A stretch of 64,000 bases of DNA, taken from contig CAKOTF010000003.1 of NCBI GenBank assembly GCA_934120045.1, forward strand, positions 1,210 through 65,209. Reading direction: 5' to 3'. Source of the stretch: an uncultured Clostridia bacterium (GTDB lineage Bacteria; Bacillota; Clostridia; TANB77; CAG-508). A program made the position numbers and the translations under genes. The notes below the pieces were generated by a model that made no database searches, was not told where the DNA came from, and was given only the letters and a program-made list of their open reading frames with translations. This document shows, piece by piece, positions 3,672 through 43,676 of the stretch (position 1 is its first letter; each line of letters starts with the position of its first letter).

Positions 3672-3700
3672 TAAAACATTATACAAAAGTGTCGAAAAAA

Positions 3701-3728
3701 GCAACAAATTTAGTTTTGTTGCTTTTTA
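3701..3728 (+). terminator. rho-independent terminator of groESL
   Basis: A gcaacaaa / tttgttgc stem followed by a T-tract. Confidence 0.6.
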
Positions 3729-3759
3729 TATAAAAAAATGACTTGTATGTATACATAAC

Positions 3760-3795
3760 TTGCAAAAAAAGTAAAAATATGGTATAATAGTTCTA
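3760..3795 (+). promoter_or_regulatory. putative promoter (ttgcaa-17-extended -10 tatggtataat)
   Basis: An extended -10 (TGnTATAAT) and a -35-like hexamer sit upstream of the GC-rich small ORF/RNA. Confidence 0.45.
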
Positions 3796-3828
3796 TCATG
3801 ATGGCTGTATGCCAAGGAGGTAAATTTC

Positions 3829-3972
3829 ATGATTAAATATGATGCTATCGTTGGGTTTTATTATGTGGATATGACCGGACAGGTTATGTCTGCAGAAATC
3901 TTCAAGCTGAATCAGGTGGCTCACGAATTGAACAGAAATCTGATCAGGCTCAGAGAGCTCAGCGCAAGTTAA
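3829..3972 (+). CDS. GC-rich 47-codon small ORF (MIKYDAIVGFYYVDMTGQVMSAEIFKLNQVAHELNRNLIRLRELSAS), or alternatively a structured small RNA
   Basis: A perfect RBS (aaggaggt) sits 8 nt before the ATG, a strong promoter lies upstream and an intrinsic terminator follows directly. The codon usage has G/C-ending codons, unlike all the neighbouring genes. It is too short to appear in the ORF track. Confidence 0.35.
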   Translation: MIKYDAIVGFYYVDMTGQVMSAEIFKLNQVAHELNRNLIRLRELSAS

Positions 3973-3996
3973 AGAACCAACAATATCCCTGGCAAG

Positions 3997-4025
3997 GGAC
4001 CCAAGCAGTGCTTGGGTCCTTTTTA
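3997..4025 (+). terminator. rho-independent terminator (ggacccaagc-agtg-cttgggtcc then TTTTT)
   Basis: A GC-rich perfect stem followed by a T-tract. Confidence 0.6.
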
Positions 4026-4072
4026 TATAGTAGGAAAGTTCTCCTTGTAGGAGGACTTTCTGTACTAGATAA

Positions 4073-4137
4073 ATATGGCGAGTCTTAGATTTTATTAAAA
4101 TTCTCATTTGATAGAAAATCTTATACTCGCTTTTTTA
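4073..4137 (+). repeat. copy A of a conserved roughly 65-bp hairpin repeat (aaatatggcgagtct...actcgctttttta)
   Basis: About 90% identical to 20843..20912. It forms a long imperfect hairpin followed by a T-tract and is terminator-like. Confidence 0.5.
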
Positions 4138-4162
4138 CATAAAAAATCACAAAAATTTCATT

Positions 4163-4191
4163 GACAATTCAAATTATTATCCTTATAATTA
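4163..4191 (+). promoter_or_regulatory. promoter of pflB (ttgaca-17-tataat)
   Basis: Consensus -35 and -10 hexamers with a 17-nt spacer. Confidence 0.5.
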
Positions 4192-4230
4192 GTATGGCAA
4201 AAGAATAAAAATGTAATACAATAAACAAAT

Positions 4231-6498
4231 ATGGAAAAAATAAAAATGGAGGTAATAAAAATGGATTTTGAACAATGGAAAGGCTTTGAAAAAGGCGAAT
4301 GGAAAAGAAAAATCGATGTAAGAAATTTCATTCAAAAGAACTATACACCATATGAAGGAAATGCAACATTTTTAACAGGAACAACAGAAAAAACAAAAAA
4401 ATTATGGGATGAAGTATTAAAATTATATGAAAAAGAAAGAAATTCAAATGGTTCAGTATTAGATATAGATACAAAAACAATATCAACAGTATCAGCACAT
4501 GAAGCTGGATATATAGATAAAGACTTAGAAGAAATAGTAGGATTACAAACAGATGCACCATTAAAAAGAGCAATAATGCCTTATGGTGGGATTAAAATAG
4601 TAGAAAAATCATGTGAAGCTTATGGAAGAGAAGTAGACCCAGAAGTTGACAAAATATTCCATACAGTAAGAAAAACACACAATGATGGAGTATTTAGTGT
4701 ATATACACCAGATATAAGAGCTGCAAGAAGTGCACACTTAATTACAGGACTTCCAGATGGATATGGAAGAGGAAGAATAATTGGAGATTACAGAAGAGTA
4801 GCACTATATGGTGTTGATGAATTAATTAGAGAAAAACAATTAGATTTAGAAGAATTAGATGTAGATGAATTTACAGAAGATGTAATAAGAGAAAGAGAAG
4901 AAATCTATGAACAAATAAAAGCATTAAACGAATTAAAAGCAATGGCTGCAAAATATGGATTTGATATATCAAGACCAGCTGGAAATGCAAAAGAAGCAAT
5001 ACAATGGTTATATTTTGGATATTTAGGAGCAATAAAAGATCAAAATGGTGCTGCAATGAGTATTGGTAGAACATCAACATTTTTAGATATATATATAGAA
5101 AGAGATTTCAAAAATGGAACATTAACAGAAGAACAAGCACAAGAATTAATGGATCATTTTGTAATGAAATTAAGATTAGTAAGATTTTTAAGAACACCAG
5201 AATACAATGAATTATTTAGTGGAGATCCAGTTTGGGTAACAGAAAGTATTGGTGGTATGGGAGTTGATGGAAGAACATTAGTAACAAAGAACTCATTCAG
5301 AATTTTACACACACTAGAAAATTTAGGACCTGCACCAGAACCAAATTTAACAGTATTATGGTCAACAAGATTACCAGAAGGATTTAAACGTTATACAGCA
5401 AACTTATCAATCAAAACATCTTCAATTCAATATGAAAATGATGATGTAATGAGAACAACATTAGGTGATGATTATGGAATTGCTTGTTGTGTATCACCAA
5501 TGAAGATAGGAAAACAAATGCAATTCTTTGGAGCAAGAGCAAATTTAGCAAAAACATTATTATATGCAATAAATGGTGGAAAAGACGAAAAATCTGGAAA
5601 ACAAGTAGCTCCAAGATTTGAACCAATAACATCAGAATATCTAGATTATGATGAAGTTATGGTAAAATTTGATCAAATGATGGATTATGTAGCAAAAATT
5701 TATATAAAAGCATTAAATGCAATACACTATATGCATGATAAATATTCTTATGAAGCAATAGAAATGGCTTTACATGATAAAGATGTAATAAGAACAATGG
5801 CATGTGGTATAGCTGGACTTTCAGTAGTTGCAGACTCATTATCAGCAATTAAATATGCAAAAGTAAAAGTTATAAGAGATGAAAACGGATTAGCAGTTGA
5901 CTATGAAATTGAAGGAGATTATCCAAAATTCGGAAATGATGATGACAGAGTTGATCAAATAGCTGTTGATGTTGTAACACAATTTTTAAGAAAATTAAAG
6001 AAACATCCTGCATATAGAGGGGCAAAACAAACATTATCAATATTAACAATAACATCAAATGTTGTATATGGAAAAGCAACAGGAAATACACCTGATGGAA
6101 GAAGAGCAGGAGCTCCATTTGGACCAGGTGCAAACCCATTACATGGAAGAGATACAAATGGTGCATTAGCTGTAATGAACTCAATTGCAAAATTACCATT
6201 TGAAGAATCAGAAGATGGTATTTCATTCACATTTGCAATTACACCTTCAACATTAGGTCAAGATATGTGGACAAAAGAAACAAATCTTGTAAGTATGTTA
6301 GATGGATATTTTGCAGAAACAGGACATCATATTAATGTTAATGTATTTGATAGAGCTTTACTTGAAGATGCTATGGAACATCCAGAAAAATATCCTCAAC
6401 TTACAATTAGAGTTTCAGGATATGCTGTAAACTTTACAAAATTAACAAGAGAACAACAATTAGATGTAATTAACAGAACAATTCATGAAAGAATTTAA
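4231..6498 (+). CDS. pflB: formate C-acetyltransferase (pyruvate formate-lyase), a glycyl radical enzyme
   Basis: A 755-aa protein with the C-terminal glycyl radical motif RVSGYAV and the active-site CC (GIACCVSPM). The overall PflB organisation is present. Confidence 0.93.
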
Positions 6499-6518
6499 TA
6501 AAAGATAGATATAAAGCT

Positions 6519-6592
6519 TTAAGAATTTCTATATAATAGTAATTCTTAAAGTTATTTTTTATATAGTAGGAAAGTTATACTTTCCTACTATA
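6519..6592 (+). terminator. tandem hairpins downstream of pflB (ctttaagaatt...aattcttaaag, then the perfect palindrome atatagtaggaaagt-tata-ctttcctactatat)
   Basis: Two inverted repeats seen directly, the first followed by a T-tract. The ttatatagtaggaaagtt motif is also present at 4024. Confidence 0.5.
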
Positions 6593-6739
6593 TAAAAAGT
6601 TACAATCGCTAGCATTTTGATATTTCATCGCTTCGCTCAGAAACTCAAATCGGGCGAAAACAAATAATAATGTTATAAAGATTGACGCAATTTACATAAT
6701 GTGATATACTGATAAATAGTGTAAAAAAGGAGAATTCAT

Positions 6740-8515
6740 ATGAATATAGAAATAAATACAGATAATAATCTACTACAGAATAGAACCAAATCAACCAATT
6801 GTGATGGGTTATCAGTTTCAAAAAAAATCGATTTATTTGAAAGATATTTGAAAGAAAATTCAAATGAATCAATTCATTCTAATACTATTTTTGAAGGATA
6901 TAATATAGGAAGAATTCTTATACAACTTAGATATTTAATGAAAAATAATTTGATAAAATATAACTCTGAAGAACTTAAAAGAATGGAAAATTTAGGATTA
7001 TTAGAAAACACTAAAGAAACAATATATGTAAAAATTAAACGTTTAAAACAGTTTTGCGAAAAACATCCTTATGCATTTTCCAATATTTATAGATTACGTA
7101 AAGATTTAAATAAGAAAGAAAAAATGGAATTTGAAAAAGTTTTTAAAGATTATACTTATATAAGGGAAAGAAAATCTAGAGGAAAATTGCCCAAAAAATT
7201 AGAAGAAGAATTAAATAATAGTCAAATTGGAGGAGTATTTAAAAAAGAGGATATTGGAGAACTTTATGAGAAATATGAAATTGGTGATAAAGAAAAAAGA
7301 CAAATAATAAATGAATTTGGAAATATGGAAAAATTAAAAAAATCTTATAAAAAATATATGATAAAACTTGCTAATGCTAAAAATTATAATGAGATACATA
7401 GAATAAAAATTGAAAATAAAGAGTCAGCTATGGAAAACCCAAAAATTCCATTAGTAAGAAATTTCTATTTAGGATCTCAAAGTTTAGAAAAACAGAAAGC
7501 TTTATTGAATTTTATCTCATATATGTACGGAGAAAAATATGCTACTAATATAATATTAGGACCAGAAGTTGATGTGATTTTAGAAAAAATCTTAAGAGAA
7601 ATGTTAACAGATAGAGAAAGACATATTGTGGAATTTAAATTTGGATTAAAAAGAGAAGAAGAAATACCCAAAGAAGTAAGGAATATGAAACAACAAAGCA
7701 TGTATCAAATAATGTGTTATCAAGTAGTACGAAAAATGCGTAAAAAAGAAATAAAAGATGTTTTTTTTAATCATCTTTATAAACCATCTGAAGAATTTAT
7801 TAGAGCATATTTTAGTAAAATGGATGTTTTTGAAAAAGATAGCGAACAGTTATCAGATGAAGATAAACAAGAACTATTAAATATGATAGATGTGGAAAAT
7901 GAAAATATTGGAGTAATAGATGAAGATACAATAGAAGAAATGGCAATTGAAAACATAAATTTTTCAACCCAATTATTATATAAGGCAATGAAATATAATG
8001 GGGTAAATACAGTTGGAGATTTATTAGCAAAAGCAAGAAGTAAAAAAGATTTATTAACTATGGCATATATTGGCAATAAAGAAGCAGAAGAAATAATAGA
8101 AAAATTATCAGAATTTGGAATTACAGTTTATAATGGAGTAAAAACGAGAGAAAAAATAGGACTAGAGATAAAAAGCTTAAACTTATCACATAGATCATAT
8201 ATGGTGTTGGCAAGAAATGAAATACATACAGTTGAACAATTAGTAGAGAGAATAAAAAGTAAGGATGATTTGTTGCAATTAAGATGGATTGGAGAAACAA
8301 CAGCTAATGAAATAATAGAAAAATTGGCTGAAAATGGAATTACAATTTATAAAGATGAAAATGAAGAAGCAATAAAAATAGCATTATCAAAATTAAGAAT
8401 ACAACAAGAAAAAATGCAAGAATTAGATGCGAATATTCTTTATCTTAAGAAACAAAGAGAAGTAGGAGAACAATTGGAAAATCAATCTAAAGGAGAAGAT
8501 GATAATGGAAGATAA
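6740..8515 (+). CDS. large K/E-rich protein that combines a sigma-70 region-4-like HTH (LTDRERHIVEFKFGL...), two tandem RNA polymerase alpha-subunit C-terminal-domain-like (HhH)2 modules and a C-terminal coiled coil
   Basis: Motif recognition. LSHRSYMVLARNEIHTVEQLVERIKSKDDLLQLRWIGETTANEIIEKLAENGI aligns with RpoA alpha-CTD ([21 protein letters not shown]...LL...[17 protein letters not shown]), and the module is duplicated. A strong promoter (ttgacg-17-TGtgatatact) lies upstream. Confidence 0.7.
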   Translation: MNIEINTDNNLLQNRTKSTNCDGLSVSKKIDLFERYLKENSNESIHSNTIFEGYNIGRILIQLRYLMKNNLIKYNSEELKRMENLGLLENTKETIYVKIKRLKQFCEKHPYAFSNIYRLRKDLNKKEKMEFEKVFKDYTYIRERKSRGKLPKKLEEELNNSQIGGVFKKEDIGELYEKYEIGDKEKRQIINEFGNMEKLKKSYKKYMIKLANAKNYNEIHRIKIENKESAMENPKIPLVRNFYLGSQSLEKQKALLNFISYMYGEKYATNIILGPEVDVILEKILREMLTDRERHIVEFKFGLKREEEIPKEVRNMKQQSMYQIMCYQVVRKMRKKEIKDVFFNHLYKPSEEFIRAYFSKMDVFEKDSEQLSDEDKQELLNMIDVENENIGVIDEDTIEEMAIENINFSTQLLYKAMKYNGVNTVGDLLAKARSKKDLLTMAYIGNKEAEEIIEKLSEFGITVYNGVKTREKIGLEIKSLNLSHRSYMVLARNEIHTVEQLVERIKSKDDLLQLRWIGETTANEIIEKLAENGITIYKDENEEAIKIALSKLRIQQEKMQELDANILYLKKQREVGEQLENQSKGEDDNGR

Positions 8516-8702
8516 AAAGCAATTTTTTGAAATATATCAAAAAGTAAAAAAAGAAGAAATGAATATAAAAACTTTAGATTCAAAAACAATATTAAAAATT
8601 TTACAGATGCTTAATGAAGAAATTAAAATAAATGATAGAAGAATTGCCCAAAAAACTGAAGAATATGAAAAACTTTTAAAGATACAAAAAAAGACTTCAT
8701 AA
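8499..8702 (+). CDS. small coiled-coil protein, translationally coupled to the preceding gene by a 17-nt overlap
   Basis: A 67-aa ORF whose ATG lies inside the stop region of the upstream gene. It is followed by a terminator-like sequence. Confidence 0.4.
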   Translation: MIMEDKKQFFEIYQKVKKEEMNIKTLDSKTILKILQMLNEEIKINDRRIAQKTEEYEKLLKIQKKTS

Positions 8703-8737
8703 CTAATGTTATGAGGCCTTTTTCTTGTATTTAAAGA

Positions 8738-9238
8738 TTAATGATTATTGTCATCATCATAGTAATTAGTTCTTCTATTATTAGAAGAAGCATAATACCA
8801 AATTAAAGCAATAATAACAGCAGTGGCAATAGCAATTATAATCCAAGTCCACATAGTAGAATTCATACCTAAGAAATTACCTGTGTTTGCATCTGTTGCT
8901 GTTCTAGTAGCATTATAACCTGTAGTATTTCTAACTGCTGTATTAGCATCATTACCAATACCAGTCATAATATTATTATTATTAGTATTATTTGTAGTAT
9001 TAGTATTTGCATTATTGTTGTTATTGTTCATATTAGTCATATCATTTATTCCATCTCCAACTCCTTTTACGGCATCTTCAACAGCATTTTCAGCTCCACC
9101 AACAACATCTCTTATACCATTAACAACATTATTACCAGCATTTTGCATAGTATTTTCAGTAGCAAAACTTAAAGTGATAGAAAAAGAGAATATTATTGCT
9201 ATAGCCAAACCAATTGCAAGAAACAATTTTTTACTCAT
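8738..9238 (-). CDS. secreted/membrane protein with an N-terminal signal peptide, an Asn/Thr-rich low-complexity region and a C-terminal TM helix
   Basis: N-terminus MSKKLFLAIGLAIAIIFS, a poly-N/T tract and C-terminal IIIAIATAVIIALIWYY. Confidence 0.55.
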   Translation of the reverse strand: MSKKLFLAIGLAIAIIFSFSITLSFATENTMQNAGNNVVNGIRDVVGGAENAVEDAVKGVGDGINDMTNMNNNNNNANTNTTNNTNNNNIMTGIGNDANTAVRNTTGYNATRTATDANTGNFLGMNSTMWTWIIIAIATAVIIALIWYYASSNNRRTNYYDDDNNH

Positions 9239-33536: not shown

Positions 33537-36500
33537 ATGAGCAAAAAGAAACTTACGAAAAAAAGTATAATATTAAGAACAATAATTGTACTAATAGCAG
33601 TAAGTATAGTAATTGGTATATATGTATTAAACAAAACACAAAAAATTGATAAATCTACAATGTCATCAGAATTACAAAGAACACAAGCATATGATGATGT
33701 AAAAGATGGAGATAATGCAATAAAAGATAATGCTGGAAATACAGTAAATGCAGTAAAATTTGATGCATTTTTCTTAAAAGATAAAAATGGAGACGGAGTA
33801 GCAGAATCAATAAGAGGAACATGTAATGAAATAGGAAGCCAAGCAAGTTTATACATGGAATTAAGTGTACTTGAACAAGGAAGACTAAAAGATGGAAAAA
33901 TAACAATTAATTCTAACAACTTTTATTTTAATACAACAATTGTAAAAGACAACGAAGTAAAAGACAACTATATTTCATCAAATACAAAAGAAATAAACTT
34001 TAATGAAATAGGTAATGGTACACAAAAATTATTAATAGGTTCAGTTCGTTCAGGTGATTATTCAAATTCTTATACAAAAACAAGTGCAATTGGAAATGAT
34101 ACAACAAAATATAGTAAAGAAAATTCTATAACATTTTCAGGAACATTTGTAGATAGTGAAGGGAATGAAACTACATTTTCTAAGGAAGTTCCGTTTACAG
34201 TTGACTGGTATGGTGAAACACATGTAGAAATTGATCCTAAAAGTCAAACTGTAGAAGTTACAGAAATGAATGATTTATCTACAGAAGATGGAGTAAAATT
34301 AAATTTTAATATTAGAACTGTAGAAAATAAAAACCAATTAAGTATATCAAGTTCAGAAATTAGTGGAACTATACCAGAATTAAATGGATATAAACCAACA
34401 TCAGTAAAAATATCTGGAACAAATGTAACATATACATATGATGCAGAAACAAGTGAATTTACAGCACAAAGAACAGCTGTGTTAAATGAAACTGGAGTTA
34501 TAACTTCAAATGGATATTCTTATTCATACTCTTCTGGTAATAGATATACAGAATTTAATTTTGAAATAACATATCCGGAAGAAGCATATACAGCTTTAGG
34601 TCAAGATGTAACAAGTTTTGAATTAGCAATTCCTGTACAAGCAGTAACAAGAGGATATAACAATCCAAATGAAGAAGACGGATTTATAAATCCATATGTA
34701 TCAAATACTGCAACAGGAATAGTAACAACAACATGGAGAAAACATGTAGGGCAATTATATGATTTTGCTATATATGTAGGAACATATATGGGTTCACCAT
34801 ATAATACATATGTTATTCAAAAGAAGAAACCATTAAACATTTATAATGGAATATCAGCAGAAGAAAAAAATGATACATATTTAGTACAATGGAGAACATA
34901 TACAGGCTCAAATGGTGCAACAGATGGAATAATAATGAATGAAACAACAGGAAAAACAGATTCATTTTTAAACACATCAGCAAAATATGAATCAATGGAT
35001 GAATTAACAACAAATGTTGGAATTTATTTTAGTGGTGCAAATAATGCATTAAATTCTGATGGATGGATTAAAGTATATGATGCAGATACAGATACACTAA
35101 TAAATACATTTACAGAAGAAGACTGGTCAGACTATACTTCTTCAAATCCATATAAATACGAAAATTCTATAAAACATATTAGAGTAGAAACAAGTAGTAC
35201 AAATGAACAATGTTATTTCTATGTAAATAATATCAAAGAATTAGATGATGAATATATAACAACAAAATATACAAAAGAAGAATTTGACAATTTATCATAC
35301 ATATACAGTTATTTAGATGGAAAAATGATAAAACCAAAAACAGATGAAAATGAAGAAACAACATATTGTTTTAAAGAAAGTGAAAGTAATAGAGCATTAT
35401 ATCAAGCACCAACATCTGTTGCAACAATATCAATAAAAGACAATACAATATCAACACATGTAACAGCAGAACACCAACAAATAACAATATCAACACAAAC
35501 ATCAGGATATAATGAACAAGGTTGGAAAAATAGTTCATTTTTAGTACAATTACCAAGTGAAATAATACTTGGAGAAATTAATACTGTAACAACAAATAAT
35601 TCAAATGTAAAAATAACAGCATATGATATATATGAAGAAAATGGAAATTATTACATAAGAATATTAACAGAAAATTCAAATGAGGAAACATTTAATATTA
35701 TAGTAGATTGTGATTTAACACCAGACCCAAGAATAGCAAAAACAACAAAATATGTAAAATTATGGGCTAAAAATGGAATAGCATCAGATTATTATTATTC
35801 TGGTGAAGATAAATATGATGTTGATGGAAATTCTAATACAACAGAAAAAGTAAATTATAGAGAAACATCATTTACATTTGATCCAGGTTCAAGTTTAAGT
35901 ACAACTCAAGTAGGAAGTAATTATGATGGTGAAGGTGGTATAACAATAGCACCAAGAGTTGCAAAAACAGATAAAGGACAAAGAACAGCAACAATTACAG
36001 TATCTGCAACAAATAATTACACATATGATATACAAGACTTGAAAATATTGGGTGTAATACCATTTGAAGGAAATCAATTTGTAATTAGTGGAAATGATTT
36101 AGGTTCAACATTTACAACATATATAAGTAAAGGTGGATTATCAACAATAACTAATGCAATAAAAGATAAAGTAAAAATATATTATTCAACAACAGAAAGA
36201 CCAAGCAAAGATGTAGAAGATTTAGCAAATGGTTGGAAATTAGCTAATGATGTTGAAGATTGGACAAAAATAAAAACATATTTAATTGTATTAGATAATT
36301 CATATAAATTATCATCAGGAGATAAAATTGAATTTGAATATGAAATCAATTTACCAGAAGGTGTTGATTATAATAAAATAGCATATTCAGAACATGCAAT
36401 ATATTTCGCATTAAATACTGATGAAGGATTATATTATACCTCAACAGGCTCTGCAAGATTAGGATTTATGATAGCAAAACAATATGATTTAGAAATTGTA

Positions 36501-39500
36501 AAATATCAAAAAGATACTGAAAAAACATTACAAGGAATAACATTTGCAATTACTGAAGATGGTGCAGAAACAAGTACAATTAAAACAACAGATGCAGATG
36601 GAAAACTTTTAGTAACAGGTTTATATGCAGAAAGATATTATACAATAAAAGAAATAAAAACAACAGATGATTATGTATTAAATCAAGAAGAAATAAGATT
36701 TTATACATACACAAAAATAAATGAAGATGGATCAGAGAGTTTATATTTAACATATCCAAATAAAGAAAATGAAAGTACACATTTGAATGTTATATATAAA
36801 ACAGTTAGAAATGACCAAGTAAATCCACCAAGTAATGGAAAAGATTATAAAATTCAAGTAAAAGTTAATAATGAAGTAAAAGCTAAATTAAAAATTAATA
36901 AAACAGATTTATCTGGAAATGTTTTAAAAAATGTTAAATTTATATTAACAGGAGAAGGAAAAAATGGCGAGATATTAACAACAGATAAAAATGGAGATAT
37001 TAATACATCAGGACTTCTTTTAGGTAAAGAATATACATTAGAAGAGATAAAAGCAACAGGTTATTATATTCCACAGACAAAAATTAAGTTTACAATATCA
37101 AATAATAATGGAAATTTTGAATTAAATTATACAGATAATAATACAACAAAAACAAAACAGATTATAACAACAGATGAAATACCAACAATAGAGTTAAATT
37201 TACAAAATGAAAAAATACCTACATATAGTTTACAATTAACCAAATATGCAAAAGGAGAAAAAGATACAAATGGAAATGATAAAAAATTAGCAAAAGCTCA
37301 ATATTTAATTAAAGGTGAAGGCATAAAAGATGAAGGTAAGATTTATACAACAGATGATAATGGAGTTCTTACAATAAATGATTTATATGAATATGTAGAA
37401 GGAAAATATATAACAGGTGAATATATATTAAAAGAAATTTATGCACCAGAAGGATATTCTCTAGACTCTACTGAATTGAAATTTAAAGCATATAGAGAAA
37501 ATGGGACATTGAAAATACAAATTCTTGAAGGTGATTCTGTAATTAGAAAGATTACAGTTGATGGTGTAGATAAAACAGACTTAAATATAAAAGATGCAGC
37601 TACTTCAAATGCAATAATTGAAATAGGTGTTGAAGATGGACAAATATTTTCAATTTATAAATATTATCAAGATGGTACAAGTTCAGCTAAAAAGCCAATA
37701 CCTGGAACAAGATTTAAAATTACAGATTTAAATGGAAATTATGTTACAGGTTCAGATGGGAAGACTGTTGGACAATGGTTTGATACAACTCCAGAACAAT
37801 TACCTGTACCAGATATAACATTATCTTCTACAGGAACATATCAATGGACACAAAGAGATGATGGAACTTGGGAAAGTACAGGAATTTATCATCAAGCAAG
37901 TAAAACAACAACATTGACATCAAATGAAATAGATTTAAAGCAAGCAGCAACATTGAAATTTGATTGGTCAGTATCATCTGAAAGTGTAAGTTATGATTAT
38001 GTTTATTATACAATTACAAATTTAGATACAAATAAAGTAGTAAATGGAACAGGAACATCAACCAAAATTGGTGGAACAAGTTATGGAACAGTTTATGAAA
38101 GTTTGAAATTTTTAAATGTATCATTAGATTTAACAGCAGGAAAATATAAAATCGAATTTACTTATAGGAAAGATGGATCAGGAGATAAAGGCTTAGACGC
38201 AGCTTTTATAAGAAATGTAAGATTTGAACAAAAAGAAGTTGAAAAAACAGGATATTATGCTGTAACAACAGATTCAAATGGACAAATAACAGCAAATTTA
38301 CCAGAAGGTTTATACAAGGCAATAGAAGTATATACAAATGATAGATATGTATTACCAGAAAAAGAAGCAGATAGAACATATTATTTTGGAATTGGTTCAT
38401 CACAAGCAGCAACATGGGATTGGGTAACAGGATTAACAGGAGAAGGTTGGAACTATGTAAATTCAGTTTCTGCACAAAAAGATGGAGGAGTAATAGCAGT
38501 TGGTTCATTCTCTAAATATTCAACAAATGTTGTAGCAAATGCTGTAGATGGAATTGATATAGATAATGATGGAACAGTTGATGAAATATCAGAAGGAAGC
38601 AATGATGGACTAATAATATCTTATGATACAGACGGAAAAGTAGTATGGTCAAAAACATTTGGAGGAGATAGTGATGATTCATTAAATAAAGTTATTCAAA
38701 CATCAGATGGAGGATATGTTGCAGTTGGATATGCTGAGAGTAATTCAATAAAATATGATGGAAAAATAATAAGTGAGCTTTCAAGAACATCAACAGATAA
38801 TTTATCACAAAAAGATGCAATATTATTAAAAATAAGTAAAGATGGAACTTATGAATGGGGCTTAAGAATTGGTGGAACAGGTGATGATGAAATACAATCA
38901 GTAATAGAAACAAGTGAAGGAAATTTCGCAATTACAGGAAACTATTATAGTTCACCATTTAACTTTTTTGATAGAGCAGGAACTGAAGTCAAAGGAACAA
39001 TGACAAATACTGGAGAAAGAGATGCATTTGTAGCATCATATTCTTCAACAGGAATATATCAGTGGAGTTCAGCAATAGGAGGAACAAATAATCAAGATGC
39101 GCCAGATTTAACAGAATATTCTACAGGAATTGCAGTAGCATCAAATTCAAGTACATCAGCACGTATCAGCTTATATTCATTAACAGGATCAGCTATAAAA
39201 AGTGCATTTTTAATAGGTAGTGGAACAAGCAAAATAACAAGTTTAGATACATATACAGATGGAACAATTATTGCAGGTGTAAATTATACAGGAACACAAT
39301 TTGATGCAGGAATATATAAAATAACAACAACAGGAAGTTCAACAAGAATTTATGAATTAACAGGAACTTATGATGAATATGTATCAGATGTACAAGTAAC
39401 ATCAGATGGAGGAATTTTATTTGGAGGCTGGTATTATTCAACAGATACAGCTGGAAGTGATGGAACAACATTTGAAGAAAAATCTGGTGAATATGCATGT

Positions 39501-41228
39501 GATGGATATGTAATAAAACTAAATTCAAAAAATGTTGTTGAATATTCAAGCAGATTATATGGAGACAATTATGATGGAGTAAATACAGTTACAGAAACAA
39601 GAAATGGAGCATTAGTATCTGGAGGATTTTATAATTCGTCAACATTTAGTGCAACAAATTGTAAAATAGAGAAAAGTGAAGATGATACAACACCAGTAGA
39701 ACAAATGCTTACAAGAGTTGGAAATTCAGAAGCATTTATAATAGCAGAAGGTGCATCAGGTGCAGAAGTACCAGAATCACAAAAATTAGAAGTTGAAAAC
39801 CAAATAAAATCATTCAAAATAACAACAGAGGTTAAAAAGAAAAATAATGTAGCTGGTGGAGATATAGATGGACAAACAGGTGTAACAATAGATGGAGTTA
39901 ACTATACAAAAGACGGAATAAGATATGTAGAAAAAGTAAAATATGGAGAAAATTCAAAAAATGCAATAAAAATAACACCAAATGCAAAATATGTAATAGA
40001 CAGTATAATAATAAATGGAAAAGAATATACAAACTTTACAACAGCAGAAGATGGAACAGTAACATTACCAATATTTGATAATGTATTAGAAGATAAGCAC
40101 ATTGTAGTACAATTTAGTAATACAATGGCAAATATAGAAGTAAATCATTATCTATGGACAAAAGCTGATGGGCCAACAACTACAAAAGTAGCAGAAACAC
40201 AAACAAGTACAGGAGAAGTTGGAACAACATATGAAACATCACCAAATACAGATATAGAATATGTAATTATAACAAATTCAGATTATTATGGTGAGAATTT
40301 ACCAGAAGGAGTAGTAGGAAGTGATTACTATATTCCAGCAAATTATAAAGGAACATATACAGAAGGAACAAAAGAAGTAATAAATTATTATTATAAAGAA
40401 AAAACATATAAATTAACAGTTCATCACTATTTAGATGGAACAACAGAATCAGTACCACTTAAAGATTCAACAACAGGTGAAAAAGTAGCAGATGAAATAA
40501 CAGAAGATTTAAAGAAAAATAGTGAATACACAACAACACAAGCAGGAGAAACAAAAATAGATTATTCAATTTATGAACTAGTTTCAATTCCAGAAAATGC
40601 TACTGGAACAATACAAGAAGATACAGAAGTAACATATTATTATAAAATAAAAACAGCAGATATTAGAATAACTAAAGTAGCAGAAGAAGATCATGAAAAA
40701 ACATTAGTAGATACGCAATTTGTATTATATCAATTTGTAGGAACAACTTCAAAAGATGAATTGATAGATACAAAAAATGTAAGCTCAGATTGGAAATTAA
40801 TTGGAACATATGCAACATCAAATTTAGGAATATTAAAACTAGAAAATTTACCAATAAATGAAGAATATAGATTAATAGAAATAAAAGCAACAGAAGGAAG
40901 AATAATTCCAGATGGACAATGGAAAATTCAATTTGTTACTGGAAATTATGACACAACAGATACATCAATAGTTACTATTAATGGGGTACCATTTAAAATA
41001 AATGCAATAGGAAATCCACCAGCTATGGTAAAAACAGATGATGGAAAACTATTACTTCCAAACAAGGAATATTATAAATTTCCAACAAGTGGAAGTATAG
41101 AACTAAAAATGTTTTATCAAACTGGAATGATTATTGTTACGATAGGGGTTGTTATAATGGCTCTTATAATAGTAAAAAGGTGTTATGTAAAAAACACTAA
41201 AAAAGTAAAGAAAGGGAGAAAACACTAA
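33537..41228 (+). CDS. giant (2563-aa) pilus tip/surface adhesin with an N-terminal signal-anchor, several Cna-B/SpaA-like isopeptide domains, an SBBP beta-propeller repeat region and a C-terminal membrane anchor
   Basis: Repeated domains of the form LEIVKYQKDTEKTLQGITFAITEDG...YYTIKEIKTTDDY (prealbumin-like fold). Repeats GGDSDDSLNKVIQTSDGGYVAVGY and GGTGDDEIQSVIETSEGNFAITGN are SBBP-type. The C-terminus has a hydrophobic helix and a KRK tail after FPTSG. Confidence 0.85.
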   Translation: MSKKKLTKKSIILRTIIVLIAVSIVIGIYVLNKTQKIDKSTMSSELQRTQAYDDVKDGDNAIKDNAGNTVNAVKFDAFFLKDKNGDGVAESIRGTCNEIGSQASLYMELSVLEQGRLKDGKITINSNNFYFNTTIVKDNEVKDNYISSNTKEINFNEIGNGTQKLLIGSVRSGDYSNSYTKTSAIGNDTTKYSKENSITFSGTFVDSEGNETTFSKEVPFTVDWYGETHVEIDPKSQTVEVTEMNDLSTEDGVKLNFNIRTVENKNQLSISSSEISGTIPELNGYKPTSVKISGTNVTYTYDAETSEFTAQRTAVLNETGVITSNGYSYSYSSGNRYTEFNFEITYPEEAYTALGQDVTSFELAIPVQAVTRGYNNPNEEDGFINPYVSNTATGIVTTTWRKHVGQLYDFAIYVGTYMGSPYNTYVIQKKKPLNIYNGISAEEKNDTYLVQWRTYTGSNGATDGIIMNETTGKTDSFLNTSAKYESMDELTTNVGIYFSGANNALNSDGWIKVYDADTDTLINTFTEEDWSDYTSSNPYKYENSIKHIRVETSSTNEQCYFYVNNIKELDDEYITTKYTKEEFDNLSYIYSYLDGKMIKPKTDENEETTYCFKESESNRALYQAPTSVATISIKDNTISTHVTAEHQQITISTQTSGYNEQGWKNSSFLVQLPSEIILGEINTVTTNNSNVKITAYDIYEENGNYYIRILTENSNEETFNIIVDCDLTPDPRIAKTTKYVKLWAKNGIASDYYYSGEDKYDVDGNSNTTEKVNYRETSFTFDPGSSLSTTQVGSNYDGEGGITIAPRVAKTDKGQRTATITVSATNNYTYDIQDLKILGVIPFEGNQFVISGNDLGSTFTTYISKGGLSTITNAIKDKVKIYYSTTERPSKDVEDLANGWKLANDVEDWTKIKTYLIVLDNSYKLSSGDKIEFEYEINLPEGVDYNKIAYSEHAIYFALNTDEGLYYTSTGSARLGFMIAKQYDLEIVKYQKDTEKTLQGITFAITEDGAETSTIKTTDADGKLLVTGLYAERYYTIKEIKTTDDYVLNQEEIRFYTYTKINEDGSESLYLTYPNKENESTHLNVIYKTVRNDQVNPPSNGKDYKIQVKVNNEVKAKLKINKTDLSGNVLKNVKFILTGEGKNGEILTTDKNGDINTSGLLLGKEYTLEEIKATGYYIPQTKIKFTISNNNGNFELNYTDNNTTKTKQIITTDEIPTIELNLQNEKIPTYSLQLTKYAKGEKDTNGNDKKLAKAQYLIKGEGIKDEGKIYTTDDNGVLTINDLYEYVEGKYITGEYILKEIYAPEGYSLDSTELKFKAYRENGTLKIQILEGDSVIRKITVDGVDKTDLNIKDAATSNAIIEIGVEDGQIFSIYKYYQDGTSSAKKPIPGTRFKITDLNGNYVTGSDGKTVGQWFDTTPEQLPVPDITLSSTGTYQWTQRDDGTWESTGIYHQASKTTTLTSNEIDLKQAATLKFDWSVSSESVSYDYVYYTITNLDTNKVVNGTGTSTKIGGTSYGTVYESLKFLNVSLDLTAGKYKIEFTYRKDGSGDKGLDAAFIRNVRFEQKEVEKTGYYAVTTDSNGQITANLPEGLYKAIEVYTNDRYVLPEKEADRTYYFGIGSSQAATWDWVTGLTGEGWNYVNSVSAQKDGGVIAVGSFSKYSTNVVANAVDGIDIDNDGTVDEISEGSNDGLIISYDTDGKVVWSKTFGGDSDDSLNKVIQTSDGGYVAVGYAESNSIKYDGKIISELSRTSTDNLSQKDAILLKISKDGTYEWGLRIGGTGDDEIQSVIETSEGNFAITGNYYSSPFNFFDRAGTEVKGTMTNTGERDAFVASYSSTGIYQWSSAIGGTNNQDAPDLTEYSTGIAVASNSSTSARISLYSLTGSAIKSAFLIGSGTSKITSLDTYTDGTIIAGVNYTGTQFDAGIYKITTTGSSTRIYELTGTYDEYVSDVQVTSDGGILFGGWYYSTDTAGSDGTTFEEKSGEYACDGYVIKLNSKNVVEYSSRLYGDNYDGVNTVTETRNGALVSGGFYNSSTFSATNCKIEKSEDDTTPVEQMLTRVGNSEAFIIAEGASGAEVPESQKLEVENQIKSFKITTEVKKKNNVAGGDIDGQTGVTIDGVNYTKDGIRYVEKVKYGENSKNAIKITPNAKYVIDSIIINGKEYTNFTTAEDGTVTLPIFDNVLEDKHIVVQFSNTMANIEVNHYLWTKADGPTTTKVAETQTSTGEVGTTYETSPNTDIEYVIITNSDYYGENLPEGVVGSDYYIPANYKGTYTEGTKEVINYYYKEKTYKLTVHHYLDGTTESVPLKDSTTGEKVADEITEDLKKNSEYTTTQAGETKIDYSIYELVSIPENATGTIQEDTEVTYYYKIKTADIRITKVAEEDHEKTLVDTQFVLYQFVGTTSKDELIDTKNVSSDWKLIGTYATSNLGILKLENLPINEEYRLIEIKATEGRIIPDGQWKIQFVTGNYDTTDTSIVTINGVPFKINAIGNPPAMVKTDDGKLLLPNKEYYKFPTSGSIELKMFYQTGMIIVTIGVVIMALIIVKRCYVKNTKKVKKGRKH

Positions 41229-42793
41229 TGAAAGAAAAAACATTATTTAAAGCAATAGTTGTTGCTATTGCAATTGTCCTAATTGTTATGGGACTAAATT
41301 TACAAGCGTTTGCATCAATAACTACAACAACAAATACAAAAAATATTACTGTTTCAGGAATTGAAGCAGGAGTAAAAGTATCTGCATATCAATTAACAAC
41401 AGTTAATTATGATTATACAGCAGACCAACCACAAGCTGTTCCATATACTTGGAATAGCAGTGTGAAAACATGGGTAGATGCTAATTATTCAACATATTCA
41501 AACCCAGAAAACTTTTATAAAAATGTAACAAGTAATTCTGATGAAGCAAAAGAATTTTATAGTGCATTATCAGGAGCTATAAAAGCTGGAACTGTTACAT
41601 TAACAGCAAAAACAGAAACTGCAACAGGAACAGCATCATATCCTGTTACAGATGATAAATTAACAGGAACAGTTACATTCACAGGATGTGAAATGGGAAC
41701 ATATTTAATTTTAATTGAAAATGGTTACAAAGTATATACACCATCTGTAATTAATTTAACACCAGAATTTGATAGAACATCAAATGAATGGAAATTACCA
41801 GATTCAATGATAGTAACAGTAAAAGCAACTAATCCCCAAGTTACAAAAACTGTTACAGATACAGCAAAAAACAAAGATAATTACAGTACAAAAGATGTAA
41901 TACCATTTACAATCGTTGCAGATATACCAACATATTTAACAGGAAGTTTATCAAAAACATATAAAGTTGGAGATACATTAAGTAATGGTTTAAAATTAGA
42001 TGATTCAACAATTAAAGTATATGGACAAAAAGGTTCAGGAAATCCTGTTGAATTAACAAAAACAACAGATTATACAAGTTCAGTAACAGGAACAACATCA
42101 TTTGAAATTAATTTTAAATATGATCAAATAAAAAATTATGACAAAGTAAGAGTTACATATAGTGCATCTCTTGCAAAAGAAACAACAACAAATATTGGTG
42201 GAGCTGGAAATACAAACACAGCAAAATTAACATATAGCAATAATCCATATGTTGCAAATTCTACACAAGAACAAGAAACAAGCAACAAAGTATTTACATA
42301 TGGTGCAGAAATTACAAAAACAGATAAAACATCTGGTGAAGCATTAACAGGTGCTGAATTTGAATTAACAAAAGATTCAAACAAATTATATTTTGTAAAA
42401 ACAGCTGATGGAGTATATTATCAAGCAAATAGCTCTGATGTAGGAGCAACAACAACTTTAGGAGTTGATAATAAGGGAAAATTAAACATATTTGGTTTAG
42501 CAGAAGGAACATATAGTTTAACAGAAACAAAAGCACCTTCAGGATATAATAAATCAGCAGAAACAAAAGAAATAAAAATAACAGATGCTGACTTAAATGG
42601 AGCATTAGATGATGAAACAGGTTCAACAGGAATTTATAAATTAACATTCCCTAACTCACAAGGATTCCAATTACCAGTAACAGGTGGAGCTGGAACAGTA
42701 GCATTTGTAGCAGGAGGAGTAGTATTTGTTGGATTAGGTATTGCATTATTTGTAATTGCTATGAAAAAAGGAAAAAAAGTAAATGAAAAATAA
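41228..42793 (+). CDS. major pilin subunit, LPXTG-anchored (LPVTGG, TM, KKGKK)
   Basis: A signal peptide and a C-terminal sorting signal LPVTGGAGTVAFVAGGVVFVGLGIALFVIAMKKGKK. A Cna-B-like domain is present (ETKAPSGYN). The start overlaps the adhesin stop (taATGa). Confidence 0.8.
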   Translation: MKEKTLFKAIVVAIAIVLIVMGLNLQAFASITTTTNTKNITVSGIEAGVKVSAYQLTTVNYDYTADQPQAVPYTWNSSVKTWVDANYSTYSNPENFYKNVTSNSDEAKEFYSALSGAIKAGTVTLTAKTETATGTASYPVTDDKLTGTVTFTGCEMGTYLILIENGYKVYTPSVINLTPEFDRTSNEWKLPDSMIVTVKATNPQVTKTVTDTAKNKDNYSTKDVIPFTIVADIPTYLTGSLSKTYKVGDTLSNGLKLDDSTIKVYGQKGSGNPVELTKTTDYTSSVTGTTSFEINFKYDQIKNYDKVRVTYSASLAKETTTNIGGAGNTNTAKLTYSNNPYVANSTQEQETSNKVFTYGAEITKTDKTSGEALTGAEFELTKDSNKLYFVKTADGVYYQANSSDVGATTTLGVDNKGKLNIFGLAEGTYSLTETKAPSGYNKSAETKEIKITDADLNGALDDETGSTGIYKLTFPNSQGFQLPVTGGAGTVAFVAGGVVFVGLGIALFVIAMKKGKKVNEK

Positions 42794-43676
42794 TAGTGAA
42801 AAACTACTATTAATAATATCAATAATTTTTATAATACTAGGGGTAGGAATTTTCCTATACCCTAGTATTAGTAATTATTTGGCAGAAAAAAATCATATTG
42901 ATATAATTAGAAATTATGATAATCTAATTGTAAAAATAAATGAAGAAAAAATAAATGAGGAAAAAGAAAAAGCTAGAATATATAATGAAAACTTGTCTGG
43001 AGATCCAGTACATGACCCATTTGTTATAGGAAGCGGATATGCTTTACCTGAAAATTATAAAGAAGTACTTAATGTTAGTGATGATGGTGTAATGGGATAT
43101 GTTGAAATTCCCAAAATTTCAGTATATTTACCAATATATCATGGAACAAGTGATGAGGTACTTGAAAAAGGTGTAGGACATATTCAAAATACTTCTGTAC
43201 CTATTGGTGGAAATTCTACACATAGTATATTAACAGGACATACAGGTTTGCCAAATGCAGAATTATTTACAAGACTTGATGAACTTGGAATAGATGATAT
43301 TTTCTATATTCATGTTTTAGGTGATGTATTAACATATAAAGTTTTTGAAACAAAAGTTATATTACCAGATAAAATTGATGAATTACGAATATTAAATGGA
43401 AAAGATTATGTAACATTAGTAACATGTACACCATATGGAGTAAATTCACATAGACTATTAGTAAAAGCAGAAAGAGTAGAATATGAGGAATATTTTGCAA
43501 ATAAGGACAATACTAATAATGAAGGAACAAACACTAAAACAGAAAATGTAAGTAAACATTATTATTTAACAGGAGCTCAGATTGGTATTGTAATATTGGC
43601 TTTAATTTTGATGATTACTGTAATTATTATTGTATCAATGAGAAACAAAAAGAATAAATATAAAATAAAAAAATAG
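42783..43676 (+). CDS. class C (pilus-specific) sortase
   Basis: N- and C-terminal TM helices, a DPF lid motif, catalytic LTGHTG His and a TLVTCTPY Cys motif. Confidence 0.85.
   Translation: MKNNSEKLLLIISIIFIILGVGIFLYPSISNYLAEKNHIDIIRNYDNLIVKINEEKINEEKEKARIYNENLSGDPVHDPFVIGSGYALPENYKEVLNVSDDGVMGYVEIPKISVYLPIYHGTSDEVLEKGVGHIQNTSVPIGGNSTHSILTGHTGLPNAELFTRLDELGIDDIFYIHVLGDVLTYKVFETKVILPDKIDELRILNGKDYVTLVTCTPYGVNSHRLLVKAERVEYEEYFANKDNTNNEGTNTKTENVSKHYYLTGAQIGIVILALILMITVIIIVSMRNKKNKYKIKK

What the first reader, a model, noticed from the sequence alone, without database searches (positions are those of the whole stretch)
6740..8702. Chimeric transcription-factor-like protein: sigma-70 region 4 plus two RNAP alpha-CTD-like modules, with a coupled mini-ORF
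The 591-aa K/E/N-rich protein contains LTDRERHIVEFKFGLKREEEIPKEVRNMKQQSMYQIMCYQVVRKMRK, the pattern of sigma-70 region 4.2 (LsdREreVlxLRfGL...HTH). It is followed by two tandem copies of a module that matches the RpoA C-terminal domain closely, LSHRSYMVLARNEIHTVEQLVERIKSKDDLLQLRWIGETTANEIIEKLAENGI against [51 protein letters not shown]. The N-terminal region also resembles a helicase-associated (HA) domain (GYNIGRILIQLRYLMKNNL...LGLL). A protein carrying both the -35/beta-flap-binding element and UP-element/activator-contact domains of RNAP is highly unusual. It could be a sigma appropriator, a decoy that titrates alpha-CTD-binding activators, or a phage or plasmid-derived transcription hijacker. 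It has its own strong promoter and a 67-aa coiled-coil ORF translationally coupled at its 3' end.
Basis: inference. Interest (0 to 1): 0.7.

Follow-up and report, generated by a model that had tools for sequence, protein, structure and literature searches.

The report
Hypervariable sigma4–alphaCTD chimera, helicase-less allele
A gut Clostridia gene really does combine copies of RNA polymerase's two promoter-reading domains (sigma region 4 and the alpha C-terminal domain) with helicase-associated repeats, but here it is a motor-less, partly degenerate allele of an undescribed, hypervariable helicase family whose function is unknown.

Summary
ORF 6740-8515 (591 aa) has two HA-like repeats, a sigma-70 region 4 homologue, two RpoA alpha-CTD modules and a coiled-coil tail. 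A conserved small ORF (8505-8702) overlaps its stop codon.

- **Family.** It is small (117 clusters at 50% identity), unnamed, and found in metagenomes of low-GC gut Clostridia. Some members carry an N-terminal SF2 helicase like those of PbeA and SauUSI. This copy has lost it.
- **Degeneracy.** This copy lacks most -35-reading and UP-element-reading residues.
- **Hypervariability.** Between flanks at least 97% identical, alleles are 99, 95, 84, 65, 60 and 36% identical, carry one to three alpha-CTD modules, and may or may not have the helicase. dN/dS is about 0.4.

There is no phage or plasmid origin and no housekeeping role. My best guess is a DNA- or promoter-targeting array for a translocase, here reduced to an adaptor. 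RNAP mimicry and an immune decoy role remain open.

The parts
6560..8740 (+). Hypervariable two-gene cassette (promoter, large gene, small gene, terminator) between conserved flanks (pflB on the left; a 166-aa membrane protein, recX and scpA on the right)
   Evidence: Window against L017: flanks are 98.6% and 96.9% nt identical, but the large gene is only 36% aa identical. 31 metagenome loci share an exact 55-nt right flank. Where enough upstream DNA is held, the pflB tail is mostly >=97% aa identical (92-96% in L054 and L040). Their alleles are 99, 95, 84, 65 and 60% identical.
6682..6710 (+). Sigma-A-type promoter: TTGACG, 17 nt, extended -10 TGTGATATACT
   Evidence: 10 of 12 matches, with TG. 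The same promoter block is conserved upstream of the divergent L016 and L017 alleles.
6727..6732 (+). Ribosome-binding site AAGGAG, 7 nt before ATG 6740
   Evidence: Read from the sequence
6740..8515 (+). 591-aa chimeric protein (HA x2, helical middle region, sigma-4, linker, alpha-CTD x2, coiled coil)
   Evidence: The ORF is intact at 591 aa in all 120 listed database clusters, 98-99% identical. dN/dS is 0.41-0.43.
6812..7009 (+). HA (helicase-associated) repeat 1, aa 25-90
7019..7234 (+). HA-like repeat 2, aa 94-165 (degenerate, with an insertion)
   Evidence: hhalign of repeat 1 against repeat 2: probability 94.5%, E 8e-8
7235..7552 (+). Helical middle region, aa 166-271, with no recognisable family
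7553..7747 (+). Sigma-70 region 4 (4.1 plus 4.2) homologue, aa 272-336, with a degenerate recognition helix
   Evidence: Searches show family-level homology to group-1 sigma region 4. Searches show that only aa 282-304 align directly, and that no equivalents of R584, E585, R588 or Q589 can be aligned.
7748..7924 (+). Conserved helical linker, aa 337-395 (PSEEFIRAYF..DVF motif and an acidic stretch)
   Evidence: Family consensus FIRxYFxxxDIF. This is the most relaxed segment, dN/dS 0.83.
7928..8140 (+). Alpha-CTD-like module 1, aa 397-467
   Evidence: The residues at E. coli positions 265/268/296/298/299 are Q, K, G, K, E.
8150..8359 (+). Alpha-CTD-like module 2, aa 471-540
   Evidence: The residues at positions 265/268/296/298/299 are R, M, G, T, T.
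8357..8494 (+). C-terminal long helix or coiled coil, aa 540-585
   Evidence: A single helix 540-585 in the AF2 model. It is identical in the otherwise 65%-identical L034 allele.
8505..8702 (+). Conserved small partner protein, 65 aa from ATG 8505 (67 aa from ATG 8499). It overlaps the large gene's stop codon (8513-8515). GGAG lies at 8492-8495.
   Evidence: Sequence. It is 41-52% identical to the ORF lying -11 to +31 nt after the large gene in nine other loci. 150 database relatives have no Pfam domain or name, and most near-identical ones are called at 65 aa. No PDB relative.
8695..8726 (+). Intrinsic terminator ending the two-gene operon
   Evidence: 9-bp stem followed by a T-run

Best explanation
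SHOWN. The gene is a helicase-less allele of a small, fast-evolving family found in metagenomes of uncultured low-GC gut Clostridia. The family architecture is: an optional SF2 helicase, two HA repeats, a helical middle region, a region 4 derived from the housekeeping sigma factor, one to three domains derived from the RpoA alpha-CTD, and a coiled-coil tail. A tightly linked 60-120-aa helical partner gene always follows. The two genes form a stand-alone chromosomal cassette that is exchanged as divergent, mosaic alleles between otherwise near-identical genomes.

INFERRED. The HA repeats, the sigma-4 helix-turn-helix and the alpha-CTD helix-hairpin-helix modules together form a duplex-DNA-targeting array. 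The ancestral target would have been promoter-like: a -35-type hexamer next to A/T-rich minor groove, the arrangement that sigma-4 and alpha-CTD read inside RNAP. In full-length relatives this array would position a PbeA/SauUSI/RadD-like translocase on DNA. The C-terminal coiled coil and the small partner would mediate assembly or control.

In the window allele the motor has been deleted. The promoter is kept, while the 5' UTR and about 400 codons are gone. Most base-contact residues are replaced. This copy therefore probably acts as a motor-less adaptor or competitor, with weak or non-specific DNA binding, or mainly protein contacts through the retained folds, the tail and the partner. It is unlikely to be a sequence-specific promoter binder.
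For: - **Architecture.** Pfam on 72 relatives gives RNA_pol_A_CTD in 57, Sigma70_r4 in 42, HA in 15, and ResIII/DEAD/Helicase_C in 11-12.
- **Origin of the domains.** The sigma-4 region is closest to group-1 sigma. The alpha-CTD modules are closest to Firmicute RpoA.
- **DNA-contact residues retained in many relatives.** Of 116 alpha-CTD modules, R265 is kept in 71, N268 in 58, G296 in 94 and K298 in 61. Among the 55 relatives with a clear sigma-4, R584 is kept in 18 (K in 8 more), R588 in 20 and Q589 in 33. One example is P0163, SKERIRQIEAKALRKLKHPAR.
- **HA domain.** It is reported to bind DNA (reference 64, cited in PMC12191111).
- **Helicase.** It resembles DNA translocases: SauUSI 7clg at 1e-12 and RadD; PbeA and type IV REase at 1e-22 to 1e-28.
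- **Loss of the helicase.** The syntenic L017 allele has it (955 aa). The nearest relative, L016, has it too, at 48% identity over aa 19-286. The promoter is conserved across the three.
- **Partner gene.** It is found next to every relative examined.
- **Selection.** dN/dS is 0.41-0.43, and 0.23-0.41 in the HA and alpha-CTD modules.
Against: - No binding was tested.
- The window copy lacks R265 in module 1 and lacks N268 and K298 in module 2. Its recognition helix cannot be aligned to RpoD.
- Only about a third of relatives keep the full set of -35-reading residues.
- No nuclease or other effector domain explains what a targeted translocase would do.
- The hypervariability is not predicted by a simple DNA-binding regulator.
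Confidence: 0.45

Rival explanations
1. RNAP or regulator mimic. The sigma-4 domain docks on the beta-flap tip of core RNAP, or the alpha-CTD modules bind factors that normally contact RpoA (Spx-type regulators, activators, NusA). The protein would then compete with sigma-A or titrate regulators. In helicase-bearing relatives the motor would be tethered to RNAP, in the manner of Mfd, RapA or HelD.
For: - The folds and hydrophobic cores of both domains are retained even where DNA-contact residues are lost: LTDRERHIVEFKFGL, F563/G564/L565 equivalents, G296.
- The best structural match is the B. subtilis alpha-CTD from its Spx complex, 1z3e_B.
- The sigma-4 segment best conserved in this copy is region 4.1 and early 4.2.
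- From my own knowledge, that segment contributes to the flap-binding surface.
Against: - No region 2 or 3 is present, so this is not a sigma factor.
- Many relatives keep the DNA-reading residues, which a pure protein-binding role would not require.
- Allele-to-allele divergence of 35-64% is hard to reconcile with binding the highly conserved RNAP.
- Nothing was tested directly.
Confidence: 0.2
2. Conflict or immunity module. The captured sigma-4 and alpha-CTD domains would act as integrated decoys for phage or mobile-element factors that attack exactly these RNAP modules. From my own knowledge, examples are T4 AsiA, S. aureus phage G1 gp67 on sigma-A region 4, and T4 Alt/ModA on alpha R265. 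Binding would trigger the helicase. Helicase-less alleles would act as sponges.
For: - Extreme within-population allelic diversity and mosaicism at one locus. dS is 0.46 inside the gene against about 2% nt divergence in the flanks. The number of alpha-CTD modules and the presence of the helicase both vary.
- The helicase is most similar to the motors of the defence proteins PbeA and type IV REase/SauUSI (PbeA domain composition from PMC6459918).
- There are weak matches of the sigma-4 and alpha-CTD regions to the defence proteins MzaA and PglW.
- One contig (L007) carries three paralogues together with ParE, an Endonuclease_NS_2 protein and an amidase.
Against: - No PADLOC system is matched beyond the helicase core. 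There is no PLD or other nuclease, toxin or effector domain.
- Neighbours are housekeeping genes, not defence islands.
- dN/dS is below 1 in every domain.
- There are no phage data.
Confidence: 0.2
3. Decaying remnant. After losing the helicase, the gene is drifting towards loss and has no function of its own.
For: - The helicase is deleted.
- DNA-contact residues are degenerate.
- Related loci are frameshifted or split: L016 inside sigma-4 and L045.
- dN/dS is fairly high, 0.4 overall and 0.5-0.8 in sigma-4 and the linker.
Against: - The 591-aa frame is intact in all 120 listed near-identical database clusters, in the 94% (L002) and 65% (L034) alleles, and in most metagenome loci.
- The consensus-like promoter, the RBS and the coupled partner gene are preserved.
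- dN/dS is clearly below 1 at dS 0.46.
- AF2 folds every domain confidently.
Confidence: 0.1

Closest known systems
RpoA C-terminal domain (alpha-CTD, Pfam PF03118), as in B. subtilis RpoA (PDB 1z3e_B, 3gfk_B)
   Different: It is not attached to an alpha N-terminal (dimerisation and assembly) domain. It is present as a tandem pair inside a larger protein. The 265-determinant is incomplete in both modules: Q265/K268/E299 and M268/T298.
Region 4 of group-1 sigma factors (SigA/RpoD, Pfam PF04545)
   Same: Family-level homology covers regions 4.1 and 4.2. Relatives score up to 8e-14 against Pfam and 1e-10 against solved SigA/RpoD region 4 structures. hhalign gives 98.6%.
   Different: Regions 1-3 are absent. 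In the window copy the helix-turn-helix is about 3 residues shorter and is not aligned by HMMER. Read by eye from the sequence, QQSMYQIMCYQ stands where RpoD has the VTRERIRQIE recognition helix. The protein itself is below the Pfam threshold.
SF2 helicases with helicase-associated (HA, PF03457) repeats, such as B. vulgatus BVU_0683 (PDB 2kta) and P0133
   Same: The N-terminal repeats are homologous to HA repeats. Relatives have the same ResIII/Helicase_C motor followed by HA repeats.
   Different: The family adds sigma-4, alpha-CTD modules, a coiled coil and a small partner. I found no description of this combination in the searchable literature. The window copy has no helicase.
PLD-helicase defence proteins: PbeA of DndCDEA-PbeABCD (PMC6459918) and the type IV restriction enzyme SauUSI (PDB 7clg)
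   Same: The helicase cores of relatives match these best: PADLOC 1e-22 to 1e-28, and phmmer 1e-12 to 7clg_A. That 7clg is SauUSI rests on my own knowledge.
   Different: The match covers only the motor. There is no PLD nuclease, no Dnd, PbeBCD or methyl-reading domain, and no defence-island context. This does not apply to the window copy.
RNAP upstream-promoter recognition complex (sigma-4 on -35 plus alpha-CTD on the UP element, PDB 3n97)
   Same: The same two domain types that sit side by side on promoter DNA in RNAP are here joined in one chain in the order sigma-4, alpha-CTD, alpha-CTD. 3n97 chains appear among the structural and sequence hits.
   Different: This is only an analogy of parts. 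No DNA binding has been shown, and the contact residues in this copy are degenerate.

Membership tests
RNA_pol_A_CTD domain (PF03118) | Sequence score above the Pfam gathering threshold | tested here: met
   68.9 bits against 23.8, in two stretches
RNA_pol_A_CTD domain (PF03118) | Alpha-CTD fold (compact helix-hairpin-helix domain) | tested here: met
RNA_pol_A_CTD domain (PF03118) | Complete DNA-binding '265 determinant' (R265, N268, C269, G296, K298, S299; residue list from my own knowledge of E. coli alpha) | tested here: not met
   Residues at 265/268/269/296/298/299 are Q/K/A/G/K/E in module 1 and R/M/V/G/T/T in module 2
RNA polymerase alpha subunit (RpoA) | N-terminal dimerisation and assembly domain; full-length equivalog score | tested here: not met
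   NCBIfam rpoA models score 40-65 bits against cutoffs of 228-523, and only over the CTD
Sigma70_r4 domain (PF04545) | Sequence score above the Pfam threshold on this protein | tested here: not met
   No hit even at E<=10 on the isolated segment. The RpoD region-4 HMM aligns only aa 282-304, 7.2 bits.
Sigma70_r4 domain (PF04545) | Homology to region 4 shown through the family profile | tested here: met
Sigma70_r4 domain (PF04545) | -35-reading residues (R584, E585, R588, Q589; from my own knowledge of E. coli sigma-70) | tested here: not met
   The window recognition helix cannot be aligned. The residues are kept in only 14-33 of 55 relatives.
Sigma-70 family sigma factor | Regions 2 and 3 (core binding, -10 recognition) | tested here: not met
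   hhalign of aa 1-390 against RpoD regions 2-4 aligns region 4 only. No Sigma70_r2 or r3 in Pfam.
HA, helicase-associated domain (PF03457) | Sequence homology to HA repeats | tested here: met
   aa 24-93 against P0133 HA repeats, E 1e-24, six stretches. There is no direct Pfam hit on this protein. Relatives score 21-28 bits against a 28.4-bit cutoff.
HA, helicase-associated domain (PF03457) | Fold of the solved HA domain (2kta) | tested here: inconclusive
SF2 helicase (ResIII / Helicase_C) | Motor domains with ATP-binding motifs | tested here: not met
   Absent from the window protein and from the 240-bp upstream spacer. Present in 11-12 of 72 relatives and in the syntenic L017 allele.
Known anti-phage defence systems (PADLOC-DB v2) | Full-length match to a system protein, plus the system's partner genes | tested here: not met
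   The window protein has only a 14-bit PglW hit. Relatives match only the helicase core of PbeA and mREase_IV. The small partner has no hit.
Phage or plasmid transcription hijackers (sigma appropriators and similar) | Homologues in phage or plasmid genomes, or in PHROG families | tested here: not met
   No tblastn match in phages or plasmids. With P0193, only the alpha-CTD part matches, mostly true rpoA genes. PHROGs gives E>=0.006 only.
RNAP beta-flap or activator binding (functional sigma-4 / alpha-CTD behaviour) | Physical interaction with RNAP core or alpha-CTD-binding regulators | not testable with these tools
   No multimer prediction or experiment was available

The most novel reading that the evidence does not exclude
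The family is an 'integrated decoy' immune sensor. Bacteria have copied the two RNAP modules that phages most often hijack, sigma-A region 4 and the alpha-CTD, onto a defence-type SF2 translocase. Phage anti-sigma or alpha-modifying factors would be trapped by the decoys and would trigger the motor. Helicase-less alleles such as this one would act as sponges. Arms-race selection would explain the old, mosaic, copy-number-variable alleles at one chromosomal site. A nearly as novel alternative is a single-chain 'promoter reader' that occupies -35 plus UP elements and delivers a translocase to strong promoters.
Probability: 0.18. Interest if true: 0.9.

Novelty: new variant of a known kind. Interest (0 to 1): 0.6.

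Why it matters
Sigma region 4 and the alpha-CTD are the two RNAP modules that read the upstream half of bacterial promoters. They are also the modules that regulators and phage factors target. I found no description of a protein family that has captured both, usually on a DNA translocase.

Such a family could be a new way of targeting promoters or RNAP, or a new class of decoy. It also shows clearly how housekeeping domains are recruited into fast-evolving genes.

The locus is a natural experiment. Near-identical gut strains carry alleles that differ by up to 64% in sequence, in the number of alpha-CTD modules, and in whether the helicase is present. This gives ready-made variants for testing function.

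Tried and rejected
- **Direct Pfam, NCBIfam and PHROGs scans** of the protein and of the isolated segments. Only alpha-CTD and generic HhH were found.
- **Phage or plasmid origin.** Rejected.
- **A paralogue elsewhere in the window.** None found.
- **An RNA element in the spacer or operon.** Only a spurious miRNA hit on the pflB terminator hairpin.
- **A repeated element at 6628-6660.** It is unique in the window.
- **Autoregulation through a special promoter motif.** Other loci simply have ordinary extended -10 sigma-A promoters.
- **Viral-contig scan with the family alignment.** It failed because no stretch was conserved enough.
- **Second word-indexed profile search.** It returned only four family members, plus RpoD proteins and one Sigma70_r4-only protein.
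- **N-terminal model fold search.** No strong structural relative.
- **Small partner.** No Pfam, PDB or PADLOC relative.
- **Literature searches** for the domain combination found nothing relevant.
- **The HA structure paper** (PMC3637686) is not held.
Full report
**1. What is at the coordinates**

The window is about 26% G+C. It is chromosomal DNA of an uncultured gut Clostridiales organism. The best genome match is MAG UBA10678, collinear with the window over 13.8 kb at 98.1%.

The gene order is a GATase, a dCMP deaminase, groEL, pflB, then the gene and its small ORF. After these come a 166-aa N-rich membrane protein on the minus strand, recX, scpA, ytfJ and a Mur ligase.

Upstream lie the pflB terminator hairpin and a good sigma-A promoter: TTGACG, 17 nt, TGTGATATACT at 6682-6710, followed by AAGGAG. 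Downstream, a small ORF overlaps the stop codon. GGAG sits at 8492-8495, ATG codons at 8499 and 8505, and the stop at 8513-8515. An intrinsic terminator follows at 8695-8716.

**2. Domain calls**

*Alpha-CTD.* This is confirmed on the protein itself.
- Pfam RNA_pol_A_CTD scores 68.9 bits against a cutoff of 23.8, in two stretches. NCBIfam rpoA models match the same residues.
- phmmer against the PDB hits C. difficile and B. subtilis RpoA.
- The two modules are still 72% identical as DNA, so the duplication is fairly recent.

*Sigma region 4.* The protein alone gives no Pfam hit, and an RpoD region-4 HMM aligns only LEKILREMLTDRERHIVEFKFGL. The family evidence is nevertheless clear.
- Sigma70_r4 is found in 42 of 72 relatives, best 8e-14.
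- A profile of 22 relatives retrieves primary sigma factors at 2e-13.
- hhalign of family columns for aa 272-336 against RpoD region 4 gives 97.5-98.6% probability.
- The relative P0125 hits solved SigA/RpoD region 4 structures at 1e-10.
- Several relatives carry an almost textbook motif, for example P0163 LTVREKKVINRRFGL...SKERIRQIEAKALRKLKHPAR.
- No region 2 or 3 is present.

**3. The family**

An exhaustive phmmer search with aa 1-390 against 1.8 billion cluster representatives finds only 117 clusters. Nearly all come from metagenome assemblies and none of those checked carries a name. For near-identical copies, NCBI uses 'hypothetical protein' or 'RNA polymerase subunit alpha C-terminal domain-containing protein'.

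The architecture is an optional N-terminal ResIII/DEAD/Helicase_C motor of about 400 aa (11-12 of 72 relatives), then HA repeats, sigma-4 and one to three alpha-CTD modules. The motor resembles SauUSI (7clg) and RadD. In PADLOC it resembles the helicase cores of PbeA and type IV restriction enzymes at 1e-22 to 1e-28, but without their PLD nuclease.

No full-length relative occurs in phage or plasmid collections. All contexts are chromosomal and not syntenic with one another. The gene lies next to ligA, uvrC, bipA, PFOR, mfd or pflB in different organisms.

**4. The small ORF is a real, conserved partner**

In nine other loci an ORF of 60-120 aa starts between -11 and +31 nt from the end of the large gene. 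These ORFs are 41-52% identical to the window's small ORF even where the large proteins are about 35% identical. They share the motif FFEIYxKVKxxEhxIxxLDxET..IL.M..EEL.IN.

A profile search finds 150 such proteins with no Pfam domain and no name. Most near-identical ones are called at 65 aa, which favours ATG 8505 as the start. There is no relative in the PDB. One low-coverage contig (L027) encodes an in-frame fusion of the large protein to the partner. I treat that as a hint of physical interaction only.

**5. This copy is truncated and degenerate**

The syntenic locus L017 has the same gene order (groEL, pflB, gene, small ORF, the 166-aa gene, recX, scpA). Its flanks are 98.6% and 96.9% identical to the window. 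Its gene, however, encodes 955 aa with the helicase and a single alpha-CTD, and is only 36% identical.

The closest relative, L016, is a helicase-HA protein of 677 aa. It is 48% identical to window aa 19-286 and is frameshifted inside sigma-4. A 317-aa ORF with two alpha-CTD modules follows it.

The promoter block is conserved among the three. The window lacks the roughly 70-nt 5' UTR and the motor, and the gene starts in the helicase-HA linker.

Using E. coli numbering, which I take from my own knowledge:
- Module 1 has Q265, K268, G296, K298, E299.
- Module 2 has R265, M268, G296, T298, T299.
- Across 116 family modules, R265 is kept in 71, N268 in 58, G296 in 94 and K298 in 61.
- The window recognition helix has no alignable equivalents of R584, E585, R588 or Q589. 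By eye, QQSMYQIMCYQ occupies that position.
- Those four residues are kept in 14-33 of the 55 relatives with a clear sigma-4.

**6. The locus is hypervariable**

A metagenome scan with an exact 55-nt right-flank pattern returned 31 loci. Where enough upstream DNA is held, the pflB tail is mostly at least 97% aa identical. In those loci the large protein is about 98-99%, 95%, 84%, 65% or 60% identical to the window's.

The alleles carry one (L017), two (window, L034) or three (L040) alpha-CTD modules. The extra module in L040 has the canonical R265, N268 and GKKS residues.

Comparing the window with L034:
- The left flank is 98.2% nt identical, while the gene is 80% nt identical.
- dS is 0.46 and dN/dS is 0.43 over the gene.
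- By segment, dN/dS is 0.23-0.32 for the HA repeats, 0.53 for sigma-4, 0.83 for the linker and 0.32-0.41 for the alpha-CTD modules.
- The last 51 residues are identical and the small ORF differs by one residue, so the alleles are mosaics with a breakpoint in alpha-CTD module 2.

L001 (98.1%) and L002 (96.7%) are collinear with the window throughout. These are therefore old allelic lineages exchanged at one site, under moderate purifying selection. The gene is not a pseudogene and not a conserved housekeeping gene.

**7. Interpretation**

*Shown:* the architecture, the captured RNAP domains, the partner gene, the loss of the helicase, the degenerate contact residues and the allelic hypervariability.

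*Inferred:* the function. I favour a DNA-targeting array, ancestrally promoter-like, that positions a translocase. This rests on three points. Many relatives retain the DNA-reading residues of both captured domains. HA is reported to bind DNA (cited in PMC12191111). The motor resembles DNA translocases. The window allele would then be a motor-less adaptor or competitor working with its partner.

None could be tested directly with the tools available.

**8. Novelty**

Searches of the held literature for the domain combination, for alpha-CTD-like or sigma-4-like domains outside RNAP, and for HA-domain biology returned nothing describing this family. Every part is a known domain. The combination, the partner gene and the population behaviour are new, so I rate it a new variant of a known kind. 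The mechanism is unresolved, but the decisive tests are straightforward to design.

Noticed in passing
L027 (oriented as the window), ORF 5454-7424: On one low-coverage (2.9x) metagenome contig, the large gene runs in frame through a novel ~48-aa insert into the small partner's sequence. This would be a natural fusion of the two proteins. It could be an assembly artefact.
   Followed up: partly
L016:3002-6189: A split form of the family gene next to mfd. A 677-aa helicase-HA ORF ends at a frameshift inside sigma region 4. A 317-aa ORF (rest of sigma-4 plus two alpha-CTD modules) and the small partner follow. The same split products recur as database clusters (P0122, P0199), so the split may be real. 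L016 comes from the same sample as L018, which carries the 591-aa allele.
   Followed up: partly
L007:6519-11989: One 14.6-kb contig carries three family paralogues: 601 aa, a 255-aa protein made only of three alpha-CTD-like modules, and 639 aa. They sit among DUF2201, NUDIX, Endonuclease_NS_2, ParE and amidase genes. This may be a mobile or prophage-like setting, unlike all the other loci.
   Followed up: no
Bacillus phage vB_BmeM-Goe8 (MN043729.1 / NC_048797.1) 2121-2582: A jumbo Bacillus phage has a gene annotated 'RNA polymerase subunit alpha' that matches the tandem alpha-CTD region of family member P0193 (30% identity, two places in the record). Free-standing alpha-CTD repeats therefore also exist in phages.
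   Followed up: no
window 6596-6660: A ~65-nt, relatively G+C-rich segment (…TCGCTTCGCTCAGAAACTCAAATCGGGCGAAAA) lies between the pflB terminator and the cassette promoter. It is absent from the L017 allele and unique in the window. The L008 upstream region has repeated GGGCGAAAA-type hairpins. It may be a small insertion scar or repeat element at the cassette boundary.
   Followed up: partly
window 8738-9238 (-): A 166-aa predicted membrane protein with a long Asn/Thr-rich low-complexity tract (NNNNNNANTNTTNNTNNNN) and no family assignment. It forms the conserved right border of the variable cassette.
   Followed up: no
window 33537-43676 (+): A 2,563-aa SpaA/Cna-B-repeat protein is followed by a 521-aa pilin-backbone-like protein and further ORFs. 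This looks like a Gram-positive pilus or adhesin cluster.
   Followed up: no
L045 (oriented), frame 3672-4787: The ~60%-identical allele at the same locus appears interrupted: its last open stretch (stop codon to stop codon) is only 372 codons. It is either a pseudogenised allele or an assembly error.
   Followed up: no
P0125 aa 671-733 and aa 783-888; L016:5058-6011: PADLOC profiles of the defence proteins MzaA (C-terminus) and PglW (positions ~770-880) weakly match the sigma-4 and alpha-CTD regions of family members (36 and 22-31 bits). Similar captured domains may therefore exist in known defence proteins.
   Followed up: no
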